A stretch of DNA of 34,216 bases from IMG/VR virus record IMGVR_UViG_3300029181_000137. One strand, 5' to 3'. The stretch's first letter is position 1, and each line of letters begins with the position of its first letter. Below are positions 17,229 through 27,478 of this stretch, in pieces. Below the pieces are notes generated by a model that was given only the letters and a program-made list of their open reading frames with translations, made no database searches and was not told the origin of the DNA. A program made the translations under genes and the position numbers. The DNA is from a virus (lineage: Duplodnaviria > Heunggongvirae > Uroviricota > Caudoviricetes).

Positions 17229-18281
17229 TTATTTCCCCACCAGTTCACTTACCTCTTTCGCCGTCTGGTTAAACCGTTCTGACTCAAGCTCAACACCTAA
17301 CGCCCGACGCCCCAGCGCCATTGCTGCTTTTATTGTGGAACCGGATCCCATAAAGAAATCAGCAACCAGATCGCCTGGCCGACTACTGGCATTGATTATT
17401 TGTCGGAGCATATCCGCTGGTTTCTCACACGGATGTTTACCCGGGTAGAACTGAACGGGGTTATGCATCCAGACATCGGTATAAGGCACGGAGACTGATA
17501 CGGAGAAATAGCGCCGGAGAGATTTAAACTCATCCAGCAATTCAGAATATTTGCGATTCAGTGAATCATAAGATGCCACCAGCTGGTGGTGTGGTTGTTC
17601 CAGTTGTTGTTTCTGAAACTTCTCTGCCGCTATACGGGAAAAAAGTGCCTGCAACTTCCGGTAGTCAGCCTCATTCGGCAACTGCCACTGACTGGCACCA
17701 AACCAGTGGGAAACCATATTTTTCTTACCTGTGGCTTCGGCAATCTGTTTTGCCGTTATACCCAGTTCGGCACGAGCATCCCTGAAATACGATATCAGCG
17801 GTGCCATTATGTGCTGTTTGAGTTCCCTTTCTTTTGCCGCATAGCCGTCACTTTTGCCGCGATATGGCCCCTGGTAATGTTCAGCAAACAGAACGCGCTC
17901 TGTGGCAGGAAAATATGCGCGCAAACTTTCTTTATTACACCCATTCCATCGTCCGGACGGCTTCGCCCAGATGATATGGTTAAGCACATTGAAACGTTCA
18001 CGCATCATGATCTCGATATCAGATGCCAGGCGATGTCCACAGAACAGGTAAAGGCTTCCGGCAGGTTTCAACACCCGCCAGAACTGGGCCAGACAGTGGT
18101 CCAGCCACTTAAGGTAATCTTCGTCCCCTTTCCACTGATTGTCCCAGCCGTTGGGCTTCACTTTGAAGTACGGTGGATCGGTAACAATCAGATCAATGGA
18201 GTCATCAGGCAGGGACTGAATAAAATGCAGGCAATCAGCGTTGATTAAATCAACACTGTTTATTTTTACAGTATTTTTCAT
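17229..18281 (-). CDS. Orphan DNA methyltransferase, beta-class (N6-adenine or N4-cytosine)
   Basis: 350-aa ORF with DPPY catalytic motif near the N-terminus (LIVTDPPYF) and AdoMet motif FxGxG near the C-terminus (DFFMGSGST); no adjacent restriction gene. Confidence 0.85.
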   Translation of the reverse strand: MKNTVKINSVDLINADCLHFIQSLPDDSIDLIVTDPPYFKVKPNGWDNQWKGDEDYLKWLDHCLAQFWRVLKPAGSLYLFCGHRLASDIEIMMRERFNVLNHIIWAKPSGRWNGCNKESLRAYFPATERVLFAEHYQGPYRGKSDGYAAKERELKQHIMAPLISYFRDARAELGITAKQIAEATGKKNMVSHWFGASQWQLPNEADYRKLQALFSRIAAEKFQKQQLEQPHHQLVASYDSLNRKYSELLDEFKSLRRYFSVSVSVPYTDVWMHNPVQFYPGKHPCEKPADMLRQIINASSRPGDLVADFFMGSGSTIKAAMALGRRALGVELESERFNQTAKEVSELVGK

Positions 18282-18747: not shown

Positions 18748-18768
18748 AAAAAAACCGCTCGACGGCGG
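18748..18768. terminator. Short GC hairpin flanked by A7/T7 runs
   Basis: AAAAAAA-CCGC-TCGACG-GCGG; reads as stem plus T7 on the minus strand; weak 4-bp stem. Confidence 0.3.
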
Positions 18769-18870
18769 GTTTAAGCTGTGTGGCGAAGTAACCACTCTTA
18801 ACAGATTATGATAGTTTTTGCGTACGCGTTAGTAATTTATTATGCTCTTTACAATTGTTAGCTTAACCGC

Positions 18871-20037
18871 ATGGAATTGACCAAAAAAATGAGCAAAGCA
18901 AGCATACGCCACGTAATCGTTCATGAGCTCTTAAAAGAATCTAATAAAGACTTCGATCACTCCAAACCATACAATCTTCGTGATACAGAACTAGATAAAA
19001 CAAATGATATAGTAAAAAAATTAGTAGACGGTGTTATTGATTTGTATGGTTCAAAAGGGAACTCAGCGCATTATGGTGTTTTTATTAAAAATAAAACAAA
19101 GCAAGGCCCTATACCAGAACTATTTCATAAATACTCTTTAGTTCAACAATCTGTTTCAAGTGATTTCATTGAATTATCGAAGGAAGTTATGAAACAAATG
19201 TATAAATCTGCTCAAGAGCAGATTTGGGCTTCTGGAGGATATGTTGTTTTTACTGATTATATTTTATCTGGTTTCCGTTATCTATTGGTTACAATGATCA
19301 AAAAAACTAATGGCGTAACTATTAGTGAAAATTTAGAGCCAGAGGAAATGATTCACTTAGAACTTGGTAATATTAACCAAGCAGCAAAAATAAATTTCAG
19401 ATATTATGAAGAATACCAAAAAGCAGATGACTTAAAAAAAACAGAGTTAAGTTATCTAAGCTTTATAAGCAAAACTACGGGACAGTCAGCGGCAGCATAT
19501 TTTATAGCAGCATTAGGATGTGACAAGGGGATTGCTTCAGCAGGTGCAACCCGTAAGTTACCAGATGAAATAAGGCGTTTCTTTAAGAAAGAACCTCTTT
19601 TAAAAAATCAAGCAGAGTCATTTAGAAATGATGTTATCAAATACTTAGAAAAGCAATTTGACAACGAGCACTCTGCAAGGCTTTCTGATATCGAATCGCT
19701 TGCTTCAGGCCATATGTCCTATTTAAAAGAGGAAGAAAAAACAGAACTTGTTGATAAATTAATGAAACACCTCAATAGTGAGGAAGTCAGAATCCCATCA
19801 GAGTTCGTAATCAATAAAAACTCCTTAGATAAAATCCGCAATGTGATATATAAAACTCCATCATTGAGCTTTCACTTCGACAAGGATTTACTCGGTGTCA
19901 CAACTGATGCTAAAATATATTATGATGACGAAAACCAAAGCCTAACATTTAATAATTTGCCTGTTGAAGCATTAACTAAGATAAGAAGAGCGTTGAAAGA
20001 AACTGATAACCCGAGTAACGAAGAAGATAAAGAATGA
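18871..20037 (+). CDS. NdpA/YejK-family (NA37) nucleoid-associated-like protein, cargo gene A
   Basis: 388-aa ORF; blocks alignable by eye to E. coli YejK (GGYVVFTDY..RYLLV...ISENLE; YLSFISKTTGQSAAAYFIAALG; FHFDKDLLG); about 30-35% GC by eye; opposite strand to phage genes. Confidence 0.8.
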   Translation: MELTKKMSKASIRHVIVHELLKESNKDFDHSKPYNLRDTELDKTNDIVKKLVDGVIDLYGSKGNSAHYGVFIKNKTKQGPIPELFHKYSLVQQSVSSDFIELSKEVMKQMYKSAQEQIWASGGYVVFTDYILSGFRYLLVTMIKKTNGVTISENLEPEEMIHLELGNINQAAKINFRYYEEYQKADDLKKTELSYLSFISKTTGQSAAAYFIAALGCDKGIASAGATRKLPDEIRRFFKKEPLLKNQAESFRNDVIKYLEKQFDNEHSARLSDIESLASGHMSYLKEEEKTELVDKLMKHLNSEEVRIPSEFVINKNSLDKIRNVIYKTPSLSFHFDKDLLGVTTDAKIYYDDENQSLTFNNLPVEALTKIRRALKETDNPSNEEDKE

Positions 20038-21260
20038 ATGATTTTAGTATAATAGTTAATCTGTATAGATTATCAAGCTATCCTCATTTTGACGGGGCTA
20101 AGTTTTCTGCGCGTATAGCTTATAATGCAGACGTAAAATCATTGTTCAAAAGAATTTTGAACCCTACTTTTCAAGCTGGTACAGCTGACGAAATAGAGGT
20201 GGATGGTCATTTAATTTATGATTATGAAGACTTTCCTGAAAAGGGAAATTTTCTTACATACTCGTTTAAAATTTCACAAGGAAGTGCGAATCGTTTTTAT
20301 AAAAATAAAAACGAGTTTGTAAAAATAAACACGCTCAAGAAAGGCATAATGCCAGAGTATTTCTATATTATAGAGGATGATTTCTATTCATTAGAAACAC
20401 CAAAACCTTCTTATATCCAAAAAATTGAGGACATTTGTGAGCTAATCAATGCTCTTTCCATGCTTGCTCATTTCCATGATATAAAAAAAGATAGCAAAGG
20501 TACATTTTATCGTTTAGTCTTTATTTTAAACTCAGAGTCTAAATCTTCTTCTGCTGTAATTGAAACAAATATTACAGAAGAAATTTTTAATGATAAAACA
20601 GTAAATACTCAGTTAGTTAAAACATTAGTAAGTAGTGAAGCTACTACTGATGCCCATCATATTGAAAAGATTAACACTTTCAGAAACACAGTTATTGAGT
20701 ATGTTAATAAAAATGGAAATTCCTTTGTCGAGTTAATTAACAAGTGGGATTTCATATGCGAACTTTATACGAACAACTTAGCTGCTTATATGTCGGCATT
20801 TTCTTTTCATAAAGCAAGGAAAGAAGTTGTTGATGCTGAACTCGATTACTCAGAAAAACTGTCAAAAATAATTTCAGAAATTTCTAACAAAGCTCTTGCC
20901 ATACCTATTTCACTAGCTGGTTCAATTGCTATTTTTAAATTAACAACAAAAGCTGATTGGATTATTGCTTTAATTGGATTGATTATCACAGCAATAATAA
21001 CATCTGCAATGATTGTGTCACAAAAAAAACAACTTGCTCGTATTTCACACTCTAAAGAAATACTTTTTGGACAATTAAGATATAGAATAAAGGATGACAC
21101 CAGCGATCTTAAAGAGAGCTTAGAAGAGGCTATTAAAAAATTAAATGACAATGAGGATTTTTGTCATAAGGTGCTTGACAGTTTATTATCACTAGCATGG
21201 ATGCCTACATTCATAGGCATCATCGGTATTTTATTTAAATTAATGCCAAATATTACTTGA
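20034..21260 (+). CDS. Membrane protein with three C-terminal TM helices, cargo gene B
   Basis: 408-aa ORF, ATGA start/stop overlap with gene A; hydrophobic segments LAIPISLAGSIAIFKL, WIIALIGLIITAIITSAMIVS, LLSLAWMPTFIGIIGILFKLM; AT-rich. Confidence 0.8.
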   Translation: MNDFSIIVNLYRLSSYPHFDGAKFSARIAYNADVKSLFKRILNPTFQAGTADEIEVDGHLIYDYEDFPEKGNFLTYSFKISQGSANRFYKNKNEFVKINTLKKGIMPEYFYIIEDDFYSLETPKPSYIQKIEDICELINALSMLAHFHDIKKDSKGTFYRLVFILNSESKSSSAVIETNITEEIFNDKTVNTQLVKTLVSSEATTDAHHIEKINTFRNTVIEYVNKNGNSFVELINKWDFICELYTNNLAAYMSAFSFHKARKEVVDAELDYSEKLSKIISEISNKALAIPISLAGSIAIFKLTTKADWIIALIGLIITAIITSAMIVSQKKQLARISHSKEILFGQLRYRIKDDTSDLKESLEEAIKKLNDNEDFCHKVLDSLLSLAWMPTFIGIIGILFKLMPNIT

Positions 21261-21612
21261 GCATGTACATAACCCCATTAATGAAACCTAACGCAGTCTG
21301 CAATTGCTTCCGGATTGTTCCATCTGAGCATCTGCGTCTCTTCGCAATAGAACGCAGTGAAATACCTATAACGAAGTGAGCAATGATCAGCTCATATTCG
21401 TCTGGTTTATACTTACACAGGCGGGCAACACAGCCGTCTATCATGATGCCTTCATCATCATCACACTGAAGGCGTATTTTTTTACCATGAGGTAAAAGCC
21501 CCTTAAAGCCTGCTGCTATCGGCTGCCAGTCCACACCACTGTTATCTGCTGCAGCCCACGCTCCCCAGCGGTCTAAAACTTCATACATATCACGCATCAA
21601 CTTTCTCCACAA
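21253..21612 (-). CDS. Q: Late antiterminator Q (QuuD / Phage_antitermQ type)
   Basis: 119 aa with LDRWGAWAA...IAAGFKGL...C..C...CSDG pattern matching my memory of DLP12 QuuD. Confidence 0.8.
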   Translation of the reverse strand: MWRKLMRDMYEVLDRWGAWAAADNSGVDWQPIAAGFKGLLPHGKKIRLQCDDDEGIMIDGCVARLCKYKPDEYELIIAHFVIGISLRSIAKRRRCSDGTIRKQLQTALGFINGVMYMLK

Positions 21613-21614
21613 AA

Positions 21615-22610
21615 TCAGGCCAGCACACCAATTGCCAGCGCGCGATCGATAAAACGAAATATCAGCTCCAGCTGGGAGCCATACTTCTCTTCAAATGCCA
21701 CGGTATCCGCGTGCAGCTCGTCGTGATGCTTTCTGCACAAAGGCAACACAAAGAGATCATGCGCTTTTGTACCCATTCCACCCTGACCGTGGCCTATCAA
21801 GTGGTGGGGATCATCAGCTGGCTTTCCACAACATGCGCACGGCTGCGTCTTAACCCAGCGCGTGTACTTTTCATTAACCCAGCGGCGACGTTTGGGGCGT
21901 AACATAAAAGACTCCGGCGACTCCGGATCCACTTTCAGCACCAGCACCTTTTTCGCTTTATCCTGGATAATGCTGGTGGCAGGAACCGAAGGCACAAGGT
22001 CACTTTCCCGGGTGACAGATGGCACAACAGGCTTCGGTAATCTCAGTGCCTTACGGGCGGCACTTTCCGGTAAGGCATCCGCCAAATCATTACGAACCAG
22101 CCACCAGCACAGTTCCGGCATTGTCACAACGTGACTGTCATCAAAACCGAGATCCAGACGCACGACAGACAACACCCAGCGGGCACAGTTATCCGTTGCC
22201 ATTGATTCCAGCCGTTCCGTGAACTGATCGCGCAGCTGGTTATCGCAGTGCCAGCACAGACGAATTGCTCCCGGAGCGTGCCGCATTGTGGTCATGTTCT
22301 CGCTGTGCCAGTCGGAATGAGGCCACTGACAGTCCTTTTCACGAAGTAACCAGCTTTCAAGACATTCCACGCCACCAGCACGACGGATCACTGCCTCATT
22401 GCGGAACACGGCCCGAACGGCAGGATCATCCGCCAGCGGTTGTGATGCCGCCGGAACGGCACCACTGGCGAAAGATGAATAACGTTCCGGCTCAGGCTCC
22501 AGCAGGACACGCCCCTGCATAAACAGGGGCATCAGCTCTGAACCTGGCCTGAACAATACGATCCCCATACGCGGGGCAATTTCAGGGGTCAGTAGTGCTC
22601 TCACGGTCAC
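21615..22610 (-). CDS. DUF968-like prophage protein with C-terminal HNH-like Cys/His motif
   Basis: 331-aa ORF; C-terminus CACCGKPADDPHHLIGHG...CRKHHDELH; nin-region position upstream of Q; family from memory. Confidence 0.55.
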   Translation of the reverse strand: MTVRALLTPEIAPRMGIVLFRPGSELMPLFMQGRVLLEPEPERYSSFASGAVPAASQPLADDPAVRAVFRNEAVIRRAGGVECLESWLLREKDCQWPHSDWHSENMTTMRHAPGAIRLCWHCDNQLRDQFTERLESMATDNCARWVLSVVRLDLGFDDSHVVTMPELCWWLVRNDLADALPESAARKALRLPKPVVPSVTRESDLVPSVPATSIIQDKAKKVLVLKVDPESPESFMLRPKRRRWVNEKYTRWVKTQPCACCGKPADDPHHLIGHGQGGMGTKAHDLFVLPLCRKHHDELHADTVAFEEKYGSQLELIFRFIDRALAIGVLA

Positions 22611-22611
22611 C

Positions 22612-23442
22612 TCAATGAACGGTATCGAGCAGCTTTAACAGCTCAGGGAATCGGGATTCGAAGAAATGCGGCTGCGTCTCGCGCGGATTTGCGGGACTGG
22701 TGATGTTCTTGCCGAACATGCAGCCTTTCGCTGTCAGCGACCAGAATTTTTTGATGTTATTAATCGCGGTACGGCTGTATCGTTCACGTTGCTCAACGAT
22801 CCCCAGCTTCGCCATCTGGTGATATGCCTGATTAGCCGTCAGGCGGATACCATACTGTTTCAGCAGTGCACTCAGTGACAGTGTCGGGCGACTTGAGCCA
22901 TCGTGTGCATCAGCAGGAGCATCAATGGCATAGCGCGGTGCCAGATTAGGTAAGCCAACAGCCTCCTGGAGTTTCTGGCAGGCACCAAGCACTGATGAGT
23001 TAGACAGGTTTAACTCCCGACGCATAAAGTCCAGCAGAATCACACCAGCCTGCATCTTGTCAGCAGCCTGTCCTGATAATTTTTCCGGTGCGCTGGTTAC
23101 CATATCGAAAGTACGGATCACCTTCAGATGGAATGACGGGCTTATCCACATTGCATAGGCATACACCAGTTCTTTGCAGACATACGTCCCCTGGTTATTT
23201 CCGCCACGAATAACGTTAACTGACTCTATATTGACCGAGTTGCAAATCTGCAACTCGCTTATTAAACGTTCAGTTTGCTCATTGCGGAGCCAGAATGCAG
23301 GCTTATGCTTATCCAGAGAACCGGCAGCCCTGTGCAGATCGTTCAGGCTGTAACGCCCATAAGCATCACGACGAACTTCAATACCATCAATGACCATCAG
23401 ATTATTCATACTTCGTTTCTCCTCTTGATCAGGCGGCTGCAC
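22612..23442 (-). CDS. KilA-N domain protein (putative antirepressor-like)
   Basis: 276-aa ORF; N-terminal segment IDGIEVRRDAYGRYSLNDLHRAAG...KPAFWLRNEQTERLISEL resembles KilA-N. Confidence 0.65.
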   Translation of the reverse strand: MQPPDQEEKRSMNNLMVIDGIEVRRDAYGRYSLNDLHRAAGSLDKHKPAFWLRNEQTERLISELQICNSVNIESVNVIRGGNNQGTYVCKELVYAYAMWISPSFHLKVIRTFDMVTSAPEKLSGQAADKMQAGVILLDFMRRELNLSNSSVLGACQKLQEAVGLPNLAPRYAIDAPADAHDGSSRPTLSLSALLKQYGIRLTANQAYHQMAKLGIVEQRERYSRTAINNIKKFWSLTAKGCMFGKNITSPANPRETQPHFFESRFPELLKLLDTVH

Positions 23443-23818
23443 CCGCCGTTTTCTCGTACTTACTGATAGTGATCTCGACCTTCCCTTCCGGGATAACCGG
23501 TCCCCACTCCACCAGCATTCTTTTCACCTGGCTGTCGTCTTCCCACACACCCGCGTGGGTCAGGGCGTCAAACAGCGCCTTGTTATAGTTGTCCAGATCG
23601 CGGATCCGGTTATCCGGAGGAAACAACACGATCTCCACTGAAGCAGGTGCCGACGTTGGTTTCGGCAGACGACGTAACTGCTCAATGATGGCGGCACACG
23701 CCGCGCCCTGGAATTTGCGCCCCGCCGCGCTTATCAGGCTCTTACCTGCAAACGCCCCTTTGTTGGGGTGTCGCCAGTACGTATTCACGCTGGGCGGAAA
23801 AGGCAGAATCAGCTTCAT
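23429..23818 (-). CDS. rusA: Holliday junction resolvase RusA
   Basis: 129 aa; PPSVNTYWRH...DLDNYNKALFDALTHAGVWEDDSQV matches RusA signature with catalytic Asp residues. Confidence 0.85.
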   Translation of the reverse strand: MKLILPFPPSVNTYWRHPNKGAFAGKSLISAAGRKFQGAACAAIIEQLRRLPKPTSAPASVEIVLFPPDNRIRDLDNYNKALFDALTHAGVWEDDSQVKRMLVEWGPVIPEGKVEITISKYEKTAGAAA

Positions 23819-24141
23819 ACTTTCAGGCCCCTCTCATGTAACCAGTAGGCTGCACGCAGCCTGGCGTTTTCCTCACCGGCAAGCAGTGAGCGGATAATCC
23901 CGACCGCCTCGCTGTCGTCATCCTTCACCGCGGTATGAAGAGTTATCCCCCGGGCCACGCCACGCTTTATCGTGATGACGCCTTTTTTCTCCAGTGCGCG
24001 AAGATGCTCTACCGCTGCATTCACTGAATGGTATCCCAGCATGGTTGCCACCTCCTGATTGGTTGGCGGAAAGCCACGCTCTTTCTGATAAGAAATCAGC
24101 ATATCCAGCACCTGCTGCTGGCATTGAGTTAACGTCGTCAT
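23815..24141 (-). CDS. LexA-type DNA-binding-domain protein lacking peptidase domain
   Basis: TQCQQQVLDMLISYQKERGFPPTNQEVATMLGYHSVNAAVEHLRALEKKGVI parallels LexA N-terminal winged helix; start set at MTTLTQ, where TAATG overlaps the upstream stop; ORF track start 24174. Confidence 0.6.
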   Translation of the reverse strand: MTTLTQCQQQVLDMLISYQKERGFPPTNQEVATMLGYHSVNAAVEHLRALEKKGVITIKRGVARGITLHTAVKDDDSEAVGIIRSLLAGEENARLRAAYWLHERGLKV

Positions 24142-24635
24142 TACGCCCCCACGTAATTCCCTGACAGATACCACTCATCACTCGATACAGCGCGCTTGCT
24201 GCTTTTCCGTAAACACTGCTCACGACGCGCCAGAAAATTGTTTCGTTCTGGCTGGGAGTGGCTTTCACGGAATGCCGCCATCCACACGGTTGCAGCACGA
24301 CGGTATAAGCCCCTTGACTCCAGTTCTTCAGCCTGGCGGGTCAGGCACAAAATCACCCGGGGATCGTTAGTGCCGACATAGAAATTGCGCACAGGTCTGG
24401 TTTCACGAACTGGTTGTGGTTCCGGCTCCTGCGCTCTCTCAGTCAGGCGCGGGAAATGTCTGCGTGTATCCCCTTCACAACGGTGAGCCACACGCCCACT
24501 CTGACGTAACTTGCTTGCTGACTGCAGAACGCGCTGCCGTGAGTAACCTGCAAAAGCATCCGCAATGTCTCCGGAAGTACACCCCGGATGGGCTTCAATG
24601 AATTTCTGAACGTCATTCAAAAGACTCATAATCAC
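24141..24635 (-). CDS. PerC-like (Pch-like) regulator domain protein
   Basis: 164-aa ORF; C-terminal AEELESRGLYRRAATVWMAAF...ARREQCL resembles the PerC family pattern as I remember it. Confidence 0.5.
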   Translation of the reverse strand: MIMSLLNDVQKFIEAHPGCTSGDIADAFAGYSRQRVLQSASKLRQSGRVAHRCEGDTRRHFPRLTERAQEPEPQPVRETRPVRNFYVGTNDPRVILCLTRQAEELESRGLYRRAATVWMAAFRESHSQPERNNFLARREQCLRKSSKRAVSSDEWYLSGNYVGA

Positions 24636-25573
24636 CCCCTGAATCCTGCCGGGATCTGGCTGTAGTCCACGTTGTCGTAACTGGCTTTAAAGTACGGGTC
24701 TTCGCGTTTTTCTGTGTACGTGCTGACGGACGGTGATAAGCGCAGGGAAAGTTCATCCCATTTTTCCCGCAATTTCGATGGGCTGAGGACGTTACGGCAC
24801 CAGAACGGGTCACGACTGACGCGGCTGTACATCTCGCAGATTTGTTTGTGAGTGCGACCATCCTGAACACACATCAGGCGAATTTCGTTTGCCCAGGCTG
24901 TCCAGTTTGGTTCTTTGGGACGAACCACCTCGCCGTCACATTCGGCGGCCTGCTCGTACAGGGCAATGATTTTTTTCCAGATCCACTGTGCGCAGGTCAA
25001 ATCATCCTGCGTTCCCCACTGGCGCTTTTTAGGGCTGAATACAACCGCATCAGGATGGCGAGTTAAAAAATCCTGTTCATCCTTCTTCATGTCCGGTTGC
25101 GAAGCGTCCGGACGAGAGGTTTTTTTATCTGACGGATCATGTTTTGATTTTACTGACGGATCCCCGCCAGATTCTGACGGGTGAAAACCCGCTTTTTTGC
25201 CAGATTTCGACGCATCATATTTTGACGGGTCAGATTTTAATGCGTCAGATTTTGACGGGTCAGAATCTGACAGTTGAGAAAATGCCGCGGCCTGAAGCTT
25301 CGCAACGTTAAGCTGATAAACATTCGACGCATTGCGGTTACCCTGGCGACGCGCCTTACGCGTTAACCAGCCTTCTGCTTCCAGCCGTGCGATAGCCGTC
25401 CTGACGGTACTCATCCCCGCGCCAATCTGGCGGGCAATGGTTTCAATTGATGGCCAGCACACACCTTCGTCATTACTGAAATCAGCCAGGCGGGCCATAA
25501 TTGCCACGCTGGATAATTTCATGCCTGACGCTGCGCAACCATCCCATACATAGCCGGTTAATTTAGTGCTCAT
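24632..25573 (-). CDS. Replication initiator, lambda O-like (HTH N-domain, low-complexity linker)
   Basis: 313-aa ORF; N-terminal HTH typical of phage replication proteins; DPSK-rich linker encoded by the iteron repeats; first large gene after the cro module. Confidence 0.75.
   Translation of the reverse strand: MSTKLTGYVWDGCAASGMKLSSVAIMARLADFSNDEGVCWPSIETIARQIGAGMSTVRTAIARLEAEGWLTRKARRQGNRNASNVYQLNVAKLQAAAFSQLSDSDPSKSDALKSDPSKYDASKSGKKAGFHPSESGGDPSVKSKHDPSDKKTSRPDASQPDMKKDEQDFLTRHPDAVVFSPKKRQWGTQDDLTCAQWIWKKIIALYEQAAECDGEVVRPKEPNWTAWANEIRLMCVQDGRTHKQICEMYSRVSRDPFWCRNVLSPSKLREKWDELSLRLSPSVSTYTEKREDPYFKASYDNVDYSQIPAGFRG
25121..25270. repeat. Iteron-like direct repeats inside the O-like gene (candidate ori)
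   Basis: At least five copies of (T)CTGACGG(G) at 25128, 25153, 25174, 25221, 25251, including two identical 14-mers TTTGACGGGTCAGA 30 bp apart, plus inverted copies. Confidence 0.55.
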
Positions 25574-25582
25574 GACCGACCT

Positions 25583-25921
25583 CTATTTCCCTGAATTTAC
25601 GACGAAACTGTTCGAGCGGGCTGAAGCACTCATGCTCATAGCCTTCACGGAGGTAGATAACCCGTTGTGTTTCCGGCTCCCAACGAATGACTCTGACGGG
25701 CACTCCGTAGTGATCTTTGAACCAGCGGTTAACTTGTCGCAAAGGACTGTCTCCTTCTGCCGGTTGAAATCCCCCACAGCCCACTCTGCAAAGCTGTGGG
25801 TTACAATTTCCCTGTCACCTGGTACATTCACTGCATAGCAATACTCCACCTTCGCTTTTCCACCCGGTACAGGAAGCGCAATCAGTTGCGAGCGACGGTA
25901 GTGTGTTGTTAAACTGTTCAT
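25583..25921 (-). CDS. Hypothetical protein between cII-position gene and O (frame uncertain)
   Basis: 112-aa ORF with ATGA coupling to the upstream gene and a stop 9 nt before the O start; a competing 73-aa ORF (25563..25784) overlaps in another frame. Confidence 0.35.
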
Positions 25922-26481
25922 GCGTTAGTTTCTCCACAGTCACGACACGCCACGGCGCCCGGAGCTGCACACTCGCGGGCGTCATTACTTTCTGAAATGC
26001 AAAAAATTTTGTAGACCAGTGCTGCATGCTCCTGCAGCTTCGAAATTGAGAGGTACAGCTCGTCGTTAATTGCTGTCTTCTCATGCGGTTCCACTACACC
26101 GTCTTCAATTGCTGAACGAATCTGTTTTGAATAACTGCCGATCTGTTCAATGACCTCCAGCAGGCGCTGGTTAATATCGGCGTTGTCCACATCCTCGACG
26201 TCAGGAAGAGACACAAAGACGCCATTTGCAGACTGCGCCACAGCATCAGCAATGAAGTGAGTGCCACCAGCACGCTGTAAAACCATTGCCCATCCCAGCG
26301 GGAAAATCTGATCGCCATCTGCACGAAGGCGGTTGAATAAAGCGTTTTCTGTTACATCGAGCCAGTCAGCCGCTTCAGCGTAACCACCCGGCAACGCCGC
26401 GATAGTTTTTCTGACAGCTTTCACGTACCACTCAGGCTGTTTTTCTATTTTCCAGTGATGCTTACCCACGATTAGCCTCAT
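25918..26481 (-). CDS. Hypothetical early protein in cII position
   Basis: 187-aa ORF immediately downstream of cro; no family recognised. Confidence 0.55.
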
Positions 26482-26713: not shown

Positions 26714-26803
26714 ACAATATGTACCTCCGGTATACATATTACATGATTGAAATGAACCTTCAAGATACTTGTACCTTAACGGTACAAGGGTTTTAATTTT
26801 GTT
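26714..26803. promoter_or_regulatory. cI/cro intergenic region: OR-like operators and candidate pR
   Basis: Perfect 21-bp palindrome CTTGTACC-TTAAC-GGTACAAG at 26768..26788; imperfect ATATGTACC...GGTATACAT at 26717..26737; minus-strand TTGAAG-16-TAATAT (26736..26763). Confidence 0.65.
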
Positions 26804-27478
26804 ATGAAAACAATCCATGACATCCGGCGGTCTAACGCCAGAAAACTGAGAGATGGTGTTGGCGGGAATTCTTCCTTTGCCACTATGATTGATCGCGAGC
26901 CAACCCAGACCAGCAGGTTTATGGGAGATGGTGCTACTAAAAATATCGGTGACAGCATGGCACGACACATCGAAAAATGTTTCGACCTGCCTGTCGGATG
27001 GCTCGATCAAGAACACCAGACAACGAACATCACAAAAAAACCTGATGTTTCAATCACTAATAAACAAATCACATTAGTCCCTGTCATATCATGGGTACAG
27101 GCCGGAGCATGGAAAGAAGTTGGATATTCTGAGGTTGATTTGAGCACAGCAGAAACGTATCCCTGCCCTGTCCCCTGTGGGGAAATGACTTATATCTTGC
27201 GGGTGATAGGTGATTCAATGATTGATGAGTACCGCCCGGGAGACATGATTTTTGTCGATCCTGAAGTACCTGCCTGCCACGGTGACGACGTTATTGCATT
27301 GATGCACGATACAGGTGAAACCACCTTCAAAAGGTTGATAGAAGATGGGACACAGCGTTATCTCAAAGCGTTAAACCCAAACTGGCCTGAGCCTTACATT
27401 AAGATCAACGGTAATTGCTCTATAATTGGTACAGTGATTTTCTCAGGAAAACCAAGAAGATACAAAATCAAAGCCTAA
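26804..27478 (+). CDS. cI: CI-type repressor (HTH plus S24 LexA-like autopeptidase domain)
   Basis: 224 aa; C-terminal domain with GDSM motif (VIGDSMIDEYRPGDMIFVD) and downstream Lys (TFKRL); divergent from cro. Confidence 0.9.
   Translation: MKTIHDIRRSNARKLRDGVGGNSSFATMIDREPTQTSRFMGDGATKNIGDSMARHIEKCFDLPVGWLDQEHQTTNITKKPDVSITNKQITLVPVISWVQAGAWKEVGYSEVDLSTAETYPCPVPCGEMTYILRVIGDSMIDEYRPGDMIFVDPEVPACHGDDVIALMHDTGETTFKRLIEDGTQRYLKALNPNWPEPYIKINGNCSIIGTVIFSGKPRRYKIKA

What the first reader, a model, noticed from the sequence alone, without database searches (positions are those of the whole stretch)
23815..24141. Stand-alone LexA-type DNA-binding domain protein in the nin region
The protein resembles the LexA N-terminal winged helix but has no S24 peptidase domain. 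Such a protein could bind SOS boxes without being cleavable, modulating the host SOS response or prophage induction.
Basis: partly seen in the sequence, partly recalled or inferred. Interest (0 to 1): 0.45.

Follow-up and report, generated by a model that had tools for sequence, protein, structure and literature searches.

The report
Phage LexA DNA-binding domain without protease
This prophage gene encodes a small protein that copies the DNA-binding head of the bacterial SOS repressor LexA but lacks the self-cleaving part; it is a real, conserved and already annotated phage gene family present in about 40% of complete E. coli genomes, and no experimental study of its function turned up in my literature searches.

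Summary
Window 23815-24141 (minus strand) encodes a 108-aa protein. Residues 1-65 match Pfam LexA_DNA_bind end to end (E=7e-19), and residues 2-69 are 48-50% identical to E. coli LexA without indels. There is no S24 peptidase domain.

The gene is not new. RefSeq annotates it as "LexA family transcriptional regulator", it falls in PHROG 362, it occurs in 2233 of 5426 complete E. coli genomes, and it is carried by SfV, SfII, SfIV, mEp460, cdtI and Stx2a/Stx2c phages.

It sits in a conserved early-operon cassette: replication initiator, PerC-like (sometimes Dam), LexA-DBD, RusA, (KilA-N), DUF968, Q. It is translationally coupled to both neighbours and evolves under purifying selection (dN/dS about 0.2).

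Four of LexA's five DNA-contact residues are kept (S39, N41, A42, E45). E44 is V or A in all but a few of 120 family sequences and never E. A family-specific tail follows the domain: an acidic linker and two conserved helices, probably a dimeriser.

The best reading is a RecA-insensitive LexA-type operator binder made during lytic growth. Whether it targets host SOS boxes (about 0.4) or private phage sites, as GIL01 gp6 does (about 0.3), cannot be settled by computation. Interest is modest.

The parts
23815..24141 (-). CDS of the stand-alone LexA-DBD protein (108 aa plus TGA stop)
   Evidence: ORF and sequence; Pfam PF01726 E=7e-19; PHROG 362 full length E=3.8e-58; 99.7% nt identity to RefSeq 'LexA family transcriptional regulator' WP_000210167.1.
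23938..24141 (-). Residues 1-68: LexA-type winged helix-turn-helix (helices 6-22, 28-35, 40-52; strands 56-59 and 65-68)
   Evidence: AF2 secondary structure; Foldseek to 3jso at rmsd 1.4 A; gap-free alignment to LexA 2-69.
23986..24027 (-). Residues 39-52: recognition helix S-V-N-A-A-V-E-H-L-R-A-L-E-K. LexA has S-P-N-A-A-E-E-H-L-K-A-L-A-R.
   Evidence: Alignment. Family statistics: S39 120/120, N41 117/120, A42 107/120, position 44 V/A and never E, E45 94/120. LexA contact residues from PMC3091678 and PMC13416735.
23923..23937 (-). Residues 69-73: start of the acidic, low-confidence linker (HTAVKDDDSE), analogous to LexA's QEEEE linker
   Evidence: pLDDT below 50 for residues 71-75; indels in the family fall here.
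23833..23922 (-). Residues 74-103: two family-specific helices (74-87, 93-103) with conserved hydrophobic positions V80, I82, I83, L86, L87, A93, A97, W100, L101; candidate dimerisation hairpin
   Evidence: AF2; conservation; dN/dS of the tail 0.19. That it dimerises is an inference.
24139..24143 (-). TAATG: stop of the PerC-like gene overlapping the start of the LexA-DBD gene, preceded by a GGGGG Shine-Dalgarno-like run
   Evidence: Read directly from the sequence and ORF coordinates.
23815..23818 (-). ATGA: start of rusA overlapping the stop of the LexA-DBD gene
   Evidence: Sequence. The same 4-nt overlap occurs in mEp390, whose protein is 46.7% identical.
24141..24635 (-). Upstream neighbour: YfdN/PerC-family protein (164 aa)
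   Evidence: Pfam PerC E=7.8e-10; PHROG 1324; RefSeq yfdN. It is the last recognised upstream gene in 67 of 94 related loci, and lies one gene further up, behind Dam, in 8 more.
23429..23818 (-). Downstream neighbour: RusA Holliday-junction resolvase
   Evidence: Pfam RusA E=9.4e-15. RusA follows the LexA-DBD gene in 92 of 94 related loci.

Best explanation
The gene encodes a RecA-insensitive LexA paralogue. It is transcribed as part of the early-right operon (replication, nin-like genes, Q), so it appears only after the S24-type prophage repressor has been inactivated or after infection.

Its N-terminal 68 residues form a LexA winged helix that reads CTGT-type half-sites with the same S39/N41/A42/E45 head as LexA. 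An acidic flexible linker and a conserved two-helix C-terminal hairpin replace LexA's S24 domain as the dimerisation element. Having no protease domain and no conserved cleavage site, the dimer cannot be removed by RecA*.

It therefore occupies SOS-type operators of the host, and of co-resident elements, while host LexA is depleted, damping or re-closing the SOS regulon during lytic development.

Shown: domain identity, loss of S24, conservation of four of five contact residues, operon position, purifying selection.

Inferred: expression timing, dimerisation through the tail, SOS-box binding and its physiological effect.
For: - LexA_DNA_bind scores E=7e-19 over the full profile.
- The protein is 48-50% identical to E. 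coli LexA 2-69 without indels.
- The model fits the LexA-DNA crystal 3jso at 1.4 A.
- The reported LexA DNA-contact residues are S39, N41, A42, E44, E45 (PMC3091678 and PMC13416735). The window protein has S, N, A, V, E. In 120 unique family sequences S39 is 120/120, N41 117, A42 107, E45 94, and the wing residues R64 119 and G65 120.
- The tail is conserved and under purifying selection (dN/dS 0.19, against 0.215 for the DBD).
- In the LexA-based genetic system the LexA DBD alone does not repress sulA-lacZ, but the DBD fused to any dimerising partner does (PMC7160566). 'DBD plus linker plus dimeriser' is therefore a proven way to build an SOS-operator repressor.
- The prophage repressor at 26804-27478 carries Peptidase_S24. 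Induction therefore coincides with LexA cleavage.
- The gene is translationally coupled inside the early operon.
Against: - E44, one of the five LexA contact residues, is never retained (V66, A45, F4, L2, T1, R1). The half-site read may therefore differ from CTGT.
- About a fifth of family sequences have also lost E45, and Citrobacter P0085 has NTIAGH, although enterobacterial SOS boxes do not vary.
- GIL01 gp6, the only characterised phage truncated LexA homologue, binds its own palindrome and activates transcription (PMC6182141).
- The window's only canonical SOS box (18254-18273) lies inside the late operon. A protein that bound it during lytic growth could obstruct late transcription.
- Dimerisation of the tail was not tested; only a monomer model exists.
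- No experimental paper on this family was found.
Confidence: 0.4

Rival explanations
1. gp6-like private regulator. The LexA head has drifted, through E44V/A and a new dimer geometry, to a phage-specific palindrome. The protein then activates or represses a phage promoter, for example to time Q or late expression or to control a moron, and has no role at host SOS boxes.
For: - GIL01 gp6 is a truncated LexA homologue that binds GaCACAnnTGTGaC at the late promoter P3 and activates it (PMC6182141).
- E44 is universally replaced, and positions 42 and 45 vary in some members.
- Canonical SOS boxes are not linked to the gene: only 7 of 80 mEp390-type loci have one within about 6 kb.
- Stand-alone LexA-DBD proteins of 65-140 aa are common in phage proteomes and in metagenomes.
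Against: - No conserved non-coding palindrome co-occurring with the gene was found. The palindromes shared by the most loci lie at fixed offsets that fall within the family gene itself or the adjacent upstream genes.
- The cassette from the replication gene to Q has essentially no intergenic space in the window.
- Late control here is by a Q antiterminator, so a gp6-type late activator is not needed.
- Four of five LexA contact residues stay under strong conservation.
Confidence: 0.3
2. Accessory DNA-binding subunit of the replication or recombination module. The winged helix would target or regulate RusA/DUF968 (HNH-like) activity, or assist the O-like initiator. These phages lack an obvious P/DnaC-type helicase loader. 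In this reading the protein is not a transcription factor.
For: - RusA follows the gene in 92 of 94 loci, and DUF968 follows RusA directly or after KilA-N in nearly all of them.
- The 4-nt ATGA overlap with rusA is kept even at 46.7% protein identity.
- In mEp390 the gene directly follows and overlaps the replication gene gp42.
- No loader-like gene was seen between the initiator and Q.
Against: - The loci sampled are related phages, so the synteny may be inherited rather than functional.
- Sequence-specific base-contact residues are conserved. That is expected for an operator binder, not for a structure-specific partner.
- The Klebsiella phage ST846-OXA48phi9.1 homologue is not followed by RusA.
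- PHROG and RefSeq curators file it as a transcriptional regulator, though this is annotation only.
Confidence: 0.12
3. Protein-level decoy. The retained LexA linker and cleavage-site-like segment (EAVGIIRSLLAGEE against LexA EGLPLVGRVAAGEP, with A88-G89 aligned to A84-G85) would engage RecA* or S24 proteases (LexA, the phage repressor, UmuD) as a competitive pseudo-substrate.
For: - HMMER alignments to LexA extend through residue 90, including the AGE motif.
- TIGR00498 matches positions 1-91.
- Intermolecular cleavage by LexA and lambda CI is established (Kim and Little 1993, cited in PMC8951638; otherwise my own knowledge).
Against: - G89 is not conserved: N, D, R, E or C in 21 of 120 sequences.
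- More distant members lack AG altogether, for example MVERES, LLTRKE and MIDDQP.
- AF2 predicts this segment as a helix, not the strand-loop of LexA's cleavage region.
- This reading does not explain the strong conservation of the DNA-contact residues.
Confidence: 0.05
4. Functionless remnant of a captured lexA 5' fragment, carried along with the nin-like cassette.
For: It looks like the first 90 codons of a gammaproteobacterial lexA. Many truncated or fused variants exist in databases.
Against: - Median pairwise dN/dS is 0.19 over 2436 pairs, and 0.19-0.22 for both DBD and tail.
- A full-length family is conserved down to about 40% identity with invariant core residues.
- The gene is intact in 2222 of 5426 E. 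coli genomes at 80% coverage or more.
Confidence: 0.03

Closest known systems
E. coli LexA (SOS repressor; PDB 1lea, 1jhh, 3jso)
   Same: The N-terminal winged helix is 48-50% identical over residues 2-69 with identical numbering. S39, N41, A42, E45 and the wing residues R64-G65 are kept. An acidic linker follows the domain.
   Different: There is no S24 peptidase/dimerisation domain, no Ser119/Lys156 dyad and no conserved Ala-Gly cleavage site. E44 is replaced by V or A throughout the family. A private two-helix tail is present. The gene is phage-encoded in an early lytic operon rather than being an autoregulated chromosomal gene.
GIL01 (Bacillus thuringiensis tectivirus) gp6, a truncated LexA homologue (Fornelos et al. 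2018, PMC6182141)
   Same: It is a phage-encoded, early-expressed protein consisting essentially of a LexA DNA-binding domain without the protease domain.
   Different: gp6 is only the winged helix, ending in the 14-residue extension that forms the wing. It was shown to bind its own palindrome and to activate late promoter P3 in a Gram-positive tectivirus that has no dedicated repressor. The present family has a further ~40-residue conserved tail, keeps most of the contact residues of E. coli-type LexA, and sits in lambdoid phages that use a CI-type repressor and Q antitermination.
Engineered LexA-DBD fusions of the LexA-based bacterial two-hybrid system (Dmitrova 1998; Daines and Silver 2000; used in PMC7160566)
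   Same: The architecture is a LexA DBD plus linker plus heterologous dimeriser. The fusion represses the sulA operator only when the appended module dimerises.
   Different: Those are artificial constructs carrying the wild-type LexA head, including E44. Here the dimeriser is a natural 30-residue helical hairpin whose oligomeric state is unknown.
PHROG 362 / RefSeq 'LexA family transcriptional regulator' (SfV orf42, mEp390 gp43, Stx2c-phage homologues)
   Same: This is the family the window gene belongs to: a full-length PHROG match at E=3.8e-58 and 95-99% nt identity to more than 2100 E. coli records.
   Different: Nothing of substance. The window copy has H38 where most copies have R38, and it lacks the Dam gene that often lies just upstream. 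The family names are annotations, not tested functions.

Membership tests
Canonical LexA repressor (TIGR00498) | N-terminal LexA-type winged helix DNA-binding domain (PF01726) | tested here: met
   PF01726 E=7e-19, profile 1-65 of 65; 1.4 A rmsd to 3jso.
Canonical LexA repressor (TIGR00498) | C-terminal S24 peptidase/dimerisation domain with the Ser119-Lys156 dyad | tested here: not met
   The protein ends at residue 108. There is no PF00717 hit. TIGR00498 scores 69.7 bits against a cutoff of 110.95 and matches only positions 1-91 of 203.
Canonical LexA repressor (TIGR00498) | RecA*-stimulated self-cleavage at a conserved Ala-Gly bond | tested here: not met
   A88-G89 aligns with A84-G85. However, G89 is replaced in 21 of 120 family sequences and the motif is absent in distant members. 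No catalytic domain is present. Cleavage itself cannot be tested here.
Canonical LexA repressor (TIGR00498) | Binds CTGT-N8-ACAG SOS boxes through S39, N41, A42, E44, E45 | tested here: inconclusive
   Four of five contact residues are identical, with E44 replaced by V. DNA binding cannot be tested with these tools.
Phage truncated LexA homologues (GIL01 gp6 type) | Phage-encoded protein made essentially of the LexA DBD, lacking the protease domain | tested here: met
   This protein has an extra ~40-residue tail that gp6 is not described as having.
Phage truncated LexA homologues (GIL01 gp6 type) | Binds a phage-specific palindrome overlapping a late promoter and activates transcription | not testable with these tools
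   No candidate conserved non-coding palindrome was found. Late control here is by Q.
PHROG 362 / RefSeq LexA family transcriptional regulator (SfV orf42 family) | Full-length sequence match, about 105-110 aa, DBD plus conserved helical tail | tested here: met
   PHROG 362 E=3.8e-58 over residues 1-108; 99.7% nt identity to WP_000210167.1 loci; tblastn 95-98% to SfV, SfII, SfIV and Stx2 phages.
PHROG 362 / RefSeq LexA family transcriptional regulator (SfV orf42 family) | Position in the early operon directly upstream of rusA, between the replication genes and Q | tested here: met
   Window ORF map; L001, L093 and L095 annotations; RusA downstream in 92 of 94 loci.

The most novel reading that the evidence does not exclude
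A large fraction of E. coli, including Stx2a/Stx2c lysogens, carries a phage-encoded, RecA-proof LexA surrogate. On this reading the surrogate re-represses the host SOS regulon, and LexA-controlled rival elements such as antirepressor-controlled prophages and colicin operons, once its own prophage has been induced. Lysogeny with these phages would then reshape SOS mutagenesis, filamentation, toxin release and inter-prophage competition.
Probability: 0.3. Interest if true: 0.65.

Novelty: new member of a known kind. Interest (0 to 1): 0.3.

Why it matters
If the protein does bind SOS operators, it would be a natural, uncleavable LexA carried by about 40% of sequenced E. coli and by Shiga-toxin phages. 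That bears on how induced prophages control the host damage response, compete with co-resident SOS-controlled elements, and possibly tune Stx output and SOS-dependent mutagenesis.

If it instead has a private target, it is a second, independent case after GIL01 gp6 of a phage recycling the LexA head as its own regulator.

Either way the sequence feature is already catalogued. The open point is function, and standard EMSA and reporter assays can address it directly.

Tried and rejected
1. Cis-linked targets. The window has only one canonical SOS box (18254-18273), and it lies far from the gene. Exact CTGT-Nn-ACAG counts at spacings 0-20 are at chance level. Perfect 7-bp-arm palindromes in 16-30 kb yield the CI/Cro operators and coding-sequence palindromes, nothing SOS-like near the cassette.

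2. Palindrome enrichment over 80 mEp390-type loci. The palindromes shared by the most loci lie at fixed offsets within the family gene and the genes just upstream, so no target emerged. Canonical SOS boxes occur in only 7 of 80 of these loci.

Single proteins were used instead.

5. The Zhang et al. 2010 LexA-DNA paper (PMC2921665) is not held. Contact residues were taken from two open papers that cite it and Knegtel 1995. The exact base contacted by E44 could therefore not be checked.

6. Ten literature searches found no experimental study of this family (one further attempt was rejected as malformed). 'LexA family' genes in the Stx-phage papers are the CI-type repressors, not this gene.

7. 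The cleavage-site decoy idea was largely rejected because the AG motif is not conserved.

8. The PADLOC hit (CARF3 wHTH, E=1e-4) was judged generic winged-helix similarity.

Full report
**What is there**

On the minus strand an ORF starts at ATG 24141 and ends with TGA at 23815-23817, encoding 108 aa. Its start overlaps the stop of the upstream gene (TAATG, 24139-24143) and follows a GGGGG Shine-Dalgarno-like run. Its stop overlaps the start of the downstream gene (ATGA, 23815-23818).

The domain assignment is robust:
- Pfam LexA_DNA_bind (PF01726) matches at E=7e-19, 67.8 bits against a 23.7-bit cutoff, over the whole 65-position profile. No Peptidase_S24 hit is found.
- The NCBIfam lexA equivalog TIGR00498 matches only positions 1-91 of 203 and stays below its cutoff (69.7 against 110.95 bits).
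- PDB sequence search gives the E. coli LexA N-terminal domain (1lea, E=3.6e-15) and full LexA (1jhh, 3jso, about 9e-15). Residues 2-69 align without a gap, so residue numbers equal LexA numbers.
- An AlphaFold2 model from an 11-sequence family alignment has mean pLDDT 77. It shows helices 6-22, 28-35 and 40-52, strands 56-59 and 65-68, a low-confidence stretch at 71-75, and two further helices at 74-87 and 93-103.
- Foldseek places the first 68 residues on LexA of the LexA-DNA complex 3jso at 1.4 A rmsd and 48% identity.

**Where it sits**

The window is an SfV/e14-like lambdoid prophage at tRNA-Thr(cgt)/proA. Read on the minus strand, the early-right operon is:
- a cro-like gene, then a CII-like gene (25918-26481);
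- a 112-aa ORF;
- an O-like replication initiator (24632-25573; PHROG 391);
- a PerC/YfdN-like protein (24141-24635);
- the LexA-DBD gene;
- RusA (23429-23818), a KilA-N protein (22612-23442) and DUF968 (21615-22610);
- antiterminator Q (21253-21612).

The divergent repressor at 26804-27478 carries Peptidase_S24. From established lambdoid biology the prophage should therefore be SOS-inducible. The LexA-DBD protein should be made only in lytic development, at the time host LexA is being cleaved. That timing is an inference.

**How common it is**

- Megablast finds the gene in 2233 of 5426 complete E. coli genomes (2222 at 80% coverage or more), mostly at 95-99% identity. It is annotated 'LexA family transcriptional regulator' or 'LexA family protein'.
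- tblastn finds it in 61 phage records, including SfV (orf42), SfII, SfIV, mEp460, cdtI, Ayreon, and Stx2a_1447, Stx2a_WGPS2, Stx2k and many Stx2c phages. There are 40-65% identical homologues in mEp390 and in Klebsiella, Salmonella, Edwardsiella and Proteus phages.
- It is PHROG 362 ('transcriptional repressor', E=3.8e-58, full length).
- An exhaustive HMMER scan of 1.84 billion cluster representatives gives 198 proteins at E of 1e-10 or lower. These include full-length 105-118-aa family members at 38-52% identity (P0123, P0126, P0127, P0130, P0159, P0224, P0240), many other short stand-alone LexA DBDs, and some proteins with two tandem DBDs.
- BFVD also holds many 65-140-aa phage 'LexA DNA-binding domain' proteins.

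The architecture is thus a known and widespread kind.

**Conserved cassette and selection**

- In 94 related loci, RusA follows the gene in 92, and DUF968 follows RusA directly or after KilA-N in nearly all of them.
- Upstream, the last recognised gene is a PerC-like gene in 67 loci and Dam in 10; in 8 of those Dam loci PerC lies just beyond Dam. In 11 loci the replication initiator abuts the gene directly (annotated examples).
- These loci are related phages, so the synteny is partly inherited.
- Pairwise Nei-Gojobori dN/dS has a median of 0.19 over 2436 pairs.
- In 74 mEp390-type genes it is 0.215 for codons 1-69, 0.19 for the tail and 0.16 for the recognition helix.
- Both halves are therefore maintained by selection, and the gene is not a decaying lexA fragment.

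**The DNA-reading head**

Two open papers list S39, N41, A42, E44 and E45 of helix 3 as the DNA-contacting residues of E. coli LexA (PMC3091678, PMC13416735). A water-mediated contact between N41 and operator base A15 is described in PMC5999292.

The window protein reads S39-V-N41-A42-A-V44-E45-H, against LexA S-P-N-A-A-E-E-H. In 120 unique full-length family sequences:
- S39 is 120/120, N41 117, A42 107 and E45 94;
- wing residues R64 and G65 are 119 and 120;
- position 44 is V (66), A (45), F, L, T or R, and never E.

The family thus keeps a LexA-like head with one systematic change. A minority has drifted further; Citrobacter P0085, for example, reads NTIAGH. I could not read the primary LexA-DNA structure paper, so which base E44 contacts is not established here. 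By general chemistry a glutamate can only accept a hydrogen bond from a cytosine or adenine amino group. Its replacement by V or A should remove one such contact and one negative charge. The outcome is either higher non-specific affinity or an altered half-site. This is an inference.

**The tail**

After the wing comes an acidic, low-confidence linker (HTAVKDDDSE, compare LexA's LLQEEEEG). Two helices follow, with conserved hydrophobic positions V80, I82, I83, L86, L87, A93, A97, W100 and L101.

HMMER extends the LexA alignment through residue 90, so EAVGIIRSLLAGEE lies over LexA's EGLPLVGRVAAGEP and A88-G89 over the A84-G85 cleavage bond. This suggests descent from a 5' fragment of a gammaproteobacterial lexA. 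The AG is not conserved, however: G89 is replaced in 21 of 120 sequences, and distant members have unrelated residues. AF2 also predicts a helix there. I therefore do not regard it as a cleavage site.

The most economical role for a conserved amphipathic hairpin on a flexible linker is dimerisation. This matters for a specific reason. In the LexA-based genetic system the LexA DBD alone does not repress sulA-lacZ, whereas the DBD fused to a dimerising partner does (PMC7160566). My own recollection, not checked here, is that the free LexA 1-84 fragment keeps weak operator binding and is removed by ClpXP (Neher et al. 2003).

**Target sites**

- The window holds one near-consensus SOS box, CACTGTTTATTTTTACAGTA at 18254-18273, matching 16 of 20 positions. 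It lies in codons 3-9 of a DNA methylase in the late region, not near the gene.
- Only 7 of 80 mEp390-type loci have a strong SOS box within about 6 kb.
- No palindrome outside the conserved cassette genes is shared by the loci.

If the protein has a phage target, I could not find it. If it acts on SOS boxes, they are mainly the host's.

**Explanations**

The best-supported mechanism, at about 0.4, is a RecA-insensitive LexA surrogate. It would be a DBD plus linker plus helical dimeriser, made from the early operon, that binds CTGT-type operators when LexA is depleted.

The main rival, at about 0.3, is the GIL01 gp6 precedent. There a truncated phage LexA homologue evolved its own palindrome and activates the late promoter (PMC6182141). 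The universal loss of E44 and the drift in some members favour this reading. The strong conservation of the other four contact residues, the Q-based late control and the lack of any candidate phage site weigh against it.

Lesser rivals:
- an accessory factor of the RusA/DUF968 or replication module (0.12, based on synteny);
- a pseudo-substrate decoy for RecA* or S24 proteases (0.05);
- a functionless remnant (0.03, contradicted by dN/dS).

One point against the SOS-surrogate reading in this particular phage is that its only SOS box lies within the late operon. Occupancy there during lytic growth could be counter-productive.

**Novelty and score**

The gene, its domain call and its family are already in RefSeq, Pfam and PHROGs. 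The general idea of a phage-borne truncated LexA is published for GIL01. Ten literature searches found no experimental work on this enterobacterial family.

I rate it a new, uncharacterised member of a known kind, with interest 0.3. The most novel reading not excluded is a widespread uncleavable LexA that re-closes the SOS regulon in induced E. coli, including Stx lysogens. I give it a probability of about 0.3, and it would merit about 0.65 if true.

Noticed in passing
window 18254-18273 (within the methylase gene 17229-18281, minus strand): A near-consensus LexA box, CACTGTTTATTTTTACAGTA (16 of 20 to the consensus, all-A/T spacer), is the only such site in the window. It lies in codons 3-9 of a type-II-like N6/N4 DNA methyltransferase between Q and the holin. 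The same box is present in E. coli TA8571, and the surrounding region occurs at 80% coverage or more in 775 of 5426 E. coli genomes. It suggests SOS control of a late-region methylase or of read-through into the lysis genes.
   Followed up: partly
window 18871-21260 (+ strand): A two-gene insert is oriented against the late operon. It comprises a 388-aa NA37 nucleoid-associated-protein homologue (PF04245, E=2e-50) and an overlapping 408-aa protein with no Pfam or PADLOC hit. The end of the second gene overlaps the stop of Q by 8 nt. It is a candidate moron or defence pair.
   Followed up: partly
window 18754-18766 (minus strand) and 18780-18870: A terminator-like hairpin followed by a T-run (GCCGTCGAGCGGT TTTTTTG) lies downstream of an A/T-rich stretch. 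By eye this looks like a pR'-tR' unit displaced about 2.4 kb from Q by the insert above. The consensus promoter scan found no sigma-70 site there.
   Followed up: partly
window 24141-24635 (minus strand): The upstream gene is a YfdN/PerC-family protein (164 aa) with an N-terminal winged-helix-like part (weak MarR-type PHROG hit) and a C-terminal PerC domain. It is the last recognised gene upstream of the LexA-DBD gene in 67 of 94 related loci, and one gene further up behind Dam in 8 more. In E. coli TA8571 a Dam methylase sits between the two genes; it is absent here.
   Followed up: partly
window 26716-26788: Two palindromes, TTGTACC-N5-GGTACAA and ATATGTACC-N-GGTATACATAT, lie between the S24-type repressor gene and the cro-like gene. 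They are probably the immunity operators.
   Followed up: no
window 25140-25320 (inside the O-like gene 24632-25573): The protein has a repetitive D-P-S-K-rich segment, and the DNA contains a palindrome TCAGATTTTGACGGGTCAGAATCTGA at 25245-25270. This is reminiscent of an iteron-type origin embedded in the initiator gene, as in lambda O.
   Followed up: no
proteins P0132 (222 aa) and P0143 (329 aa) from the representative library: Some metagenomic proteins carry two LexA DNA-binding domains in tandem in one chain. This is a covalent 'dimer' version of the stand-alone domain.
   Followed up: no
loci L025, L027, L035, L041, L058, L072, L073, positions about 1450-2500; L094 position 3996: A minority of related phages carry very strong SOS boxes (up to 18 of 20 to the consensus). 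In mEp390-type phages they lie near the immunity region. In a Klebsiella phage the box lies just upstream of a divergent two-gene unit between Q and the holin. This hints at LexA-controlled cargo or antirepressor genes.
   Followed up: no
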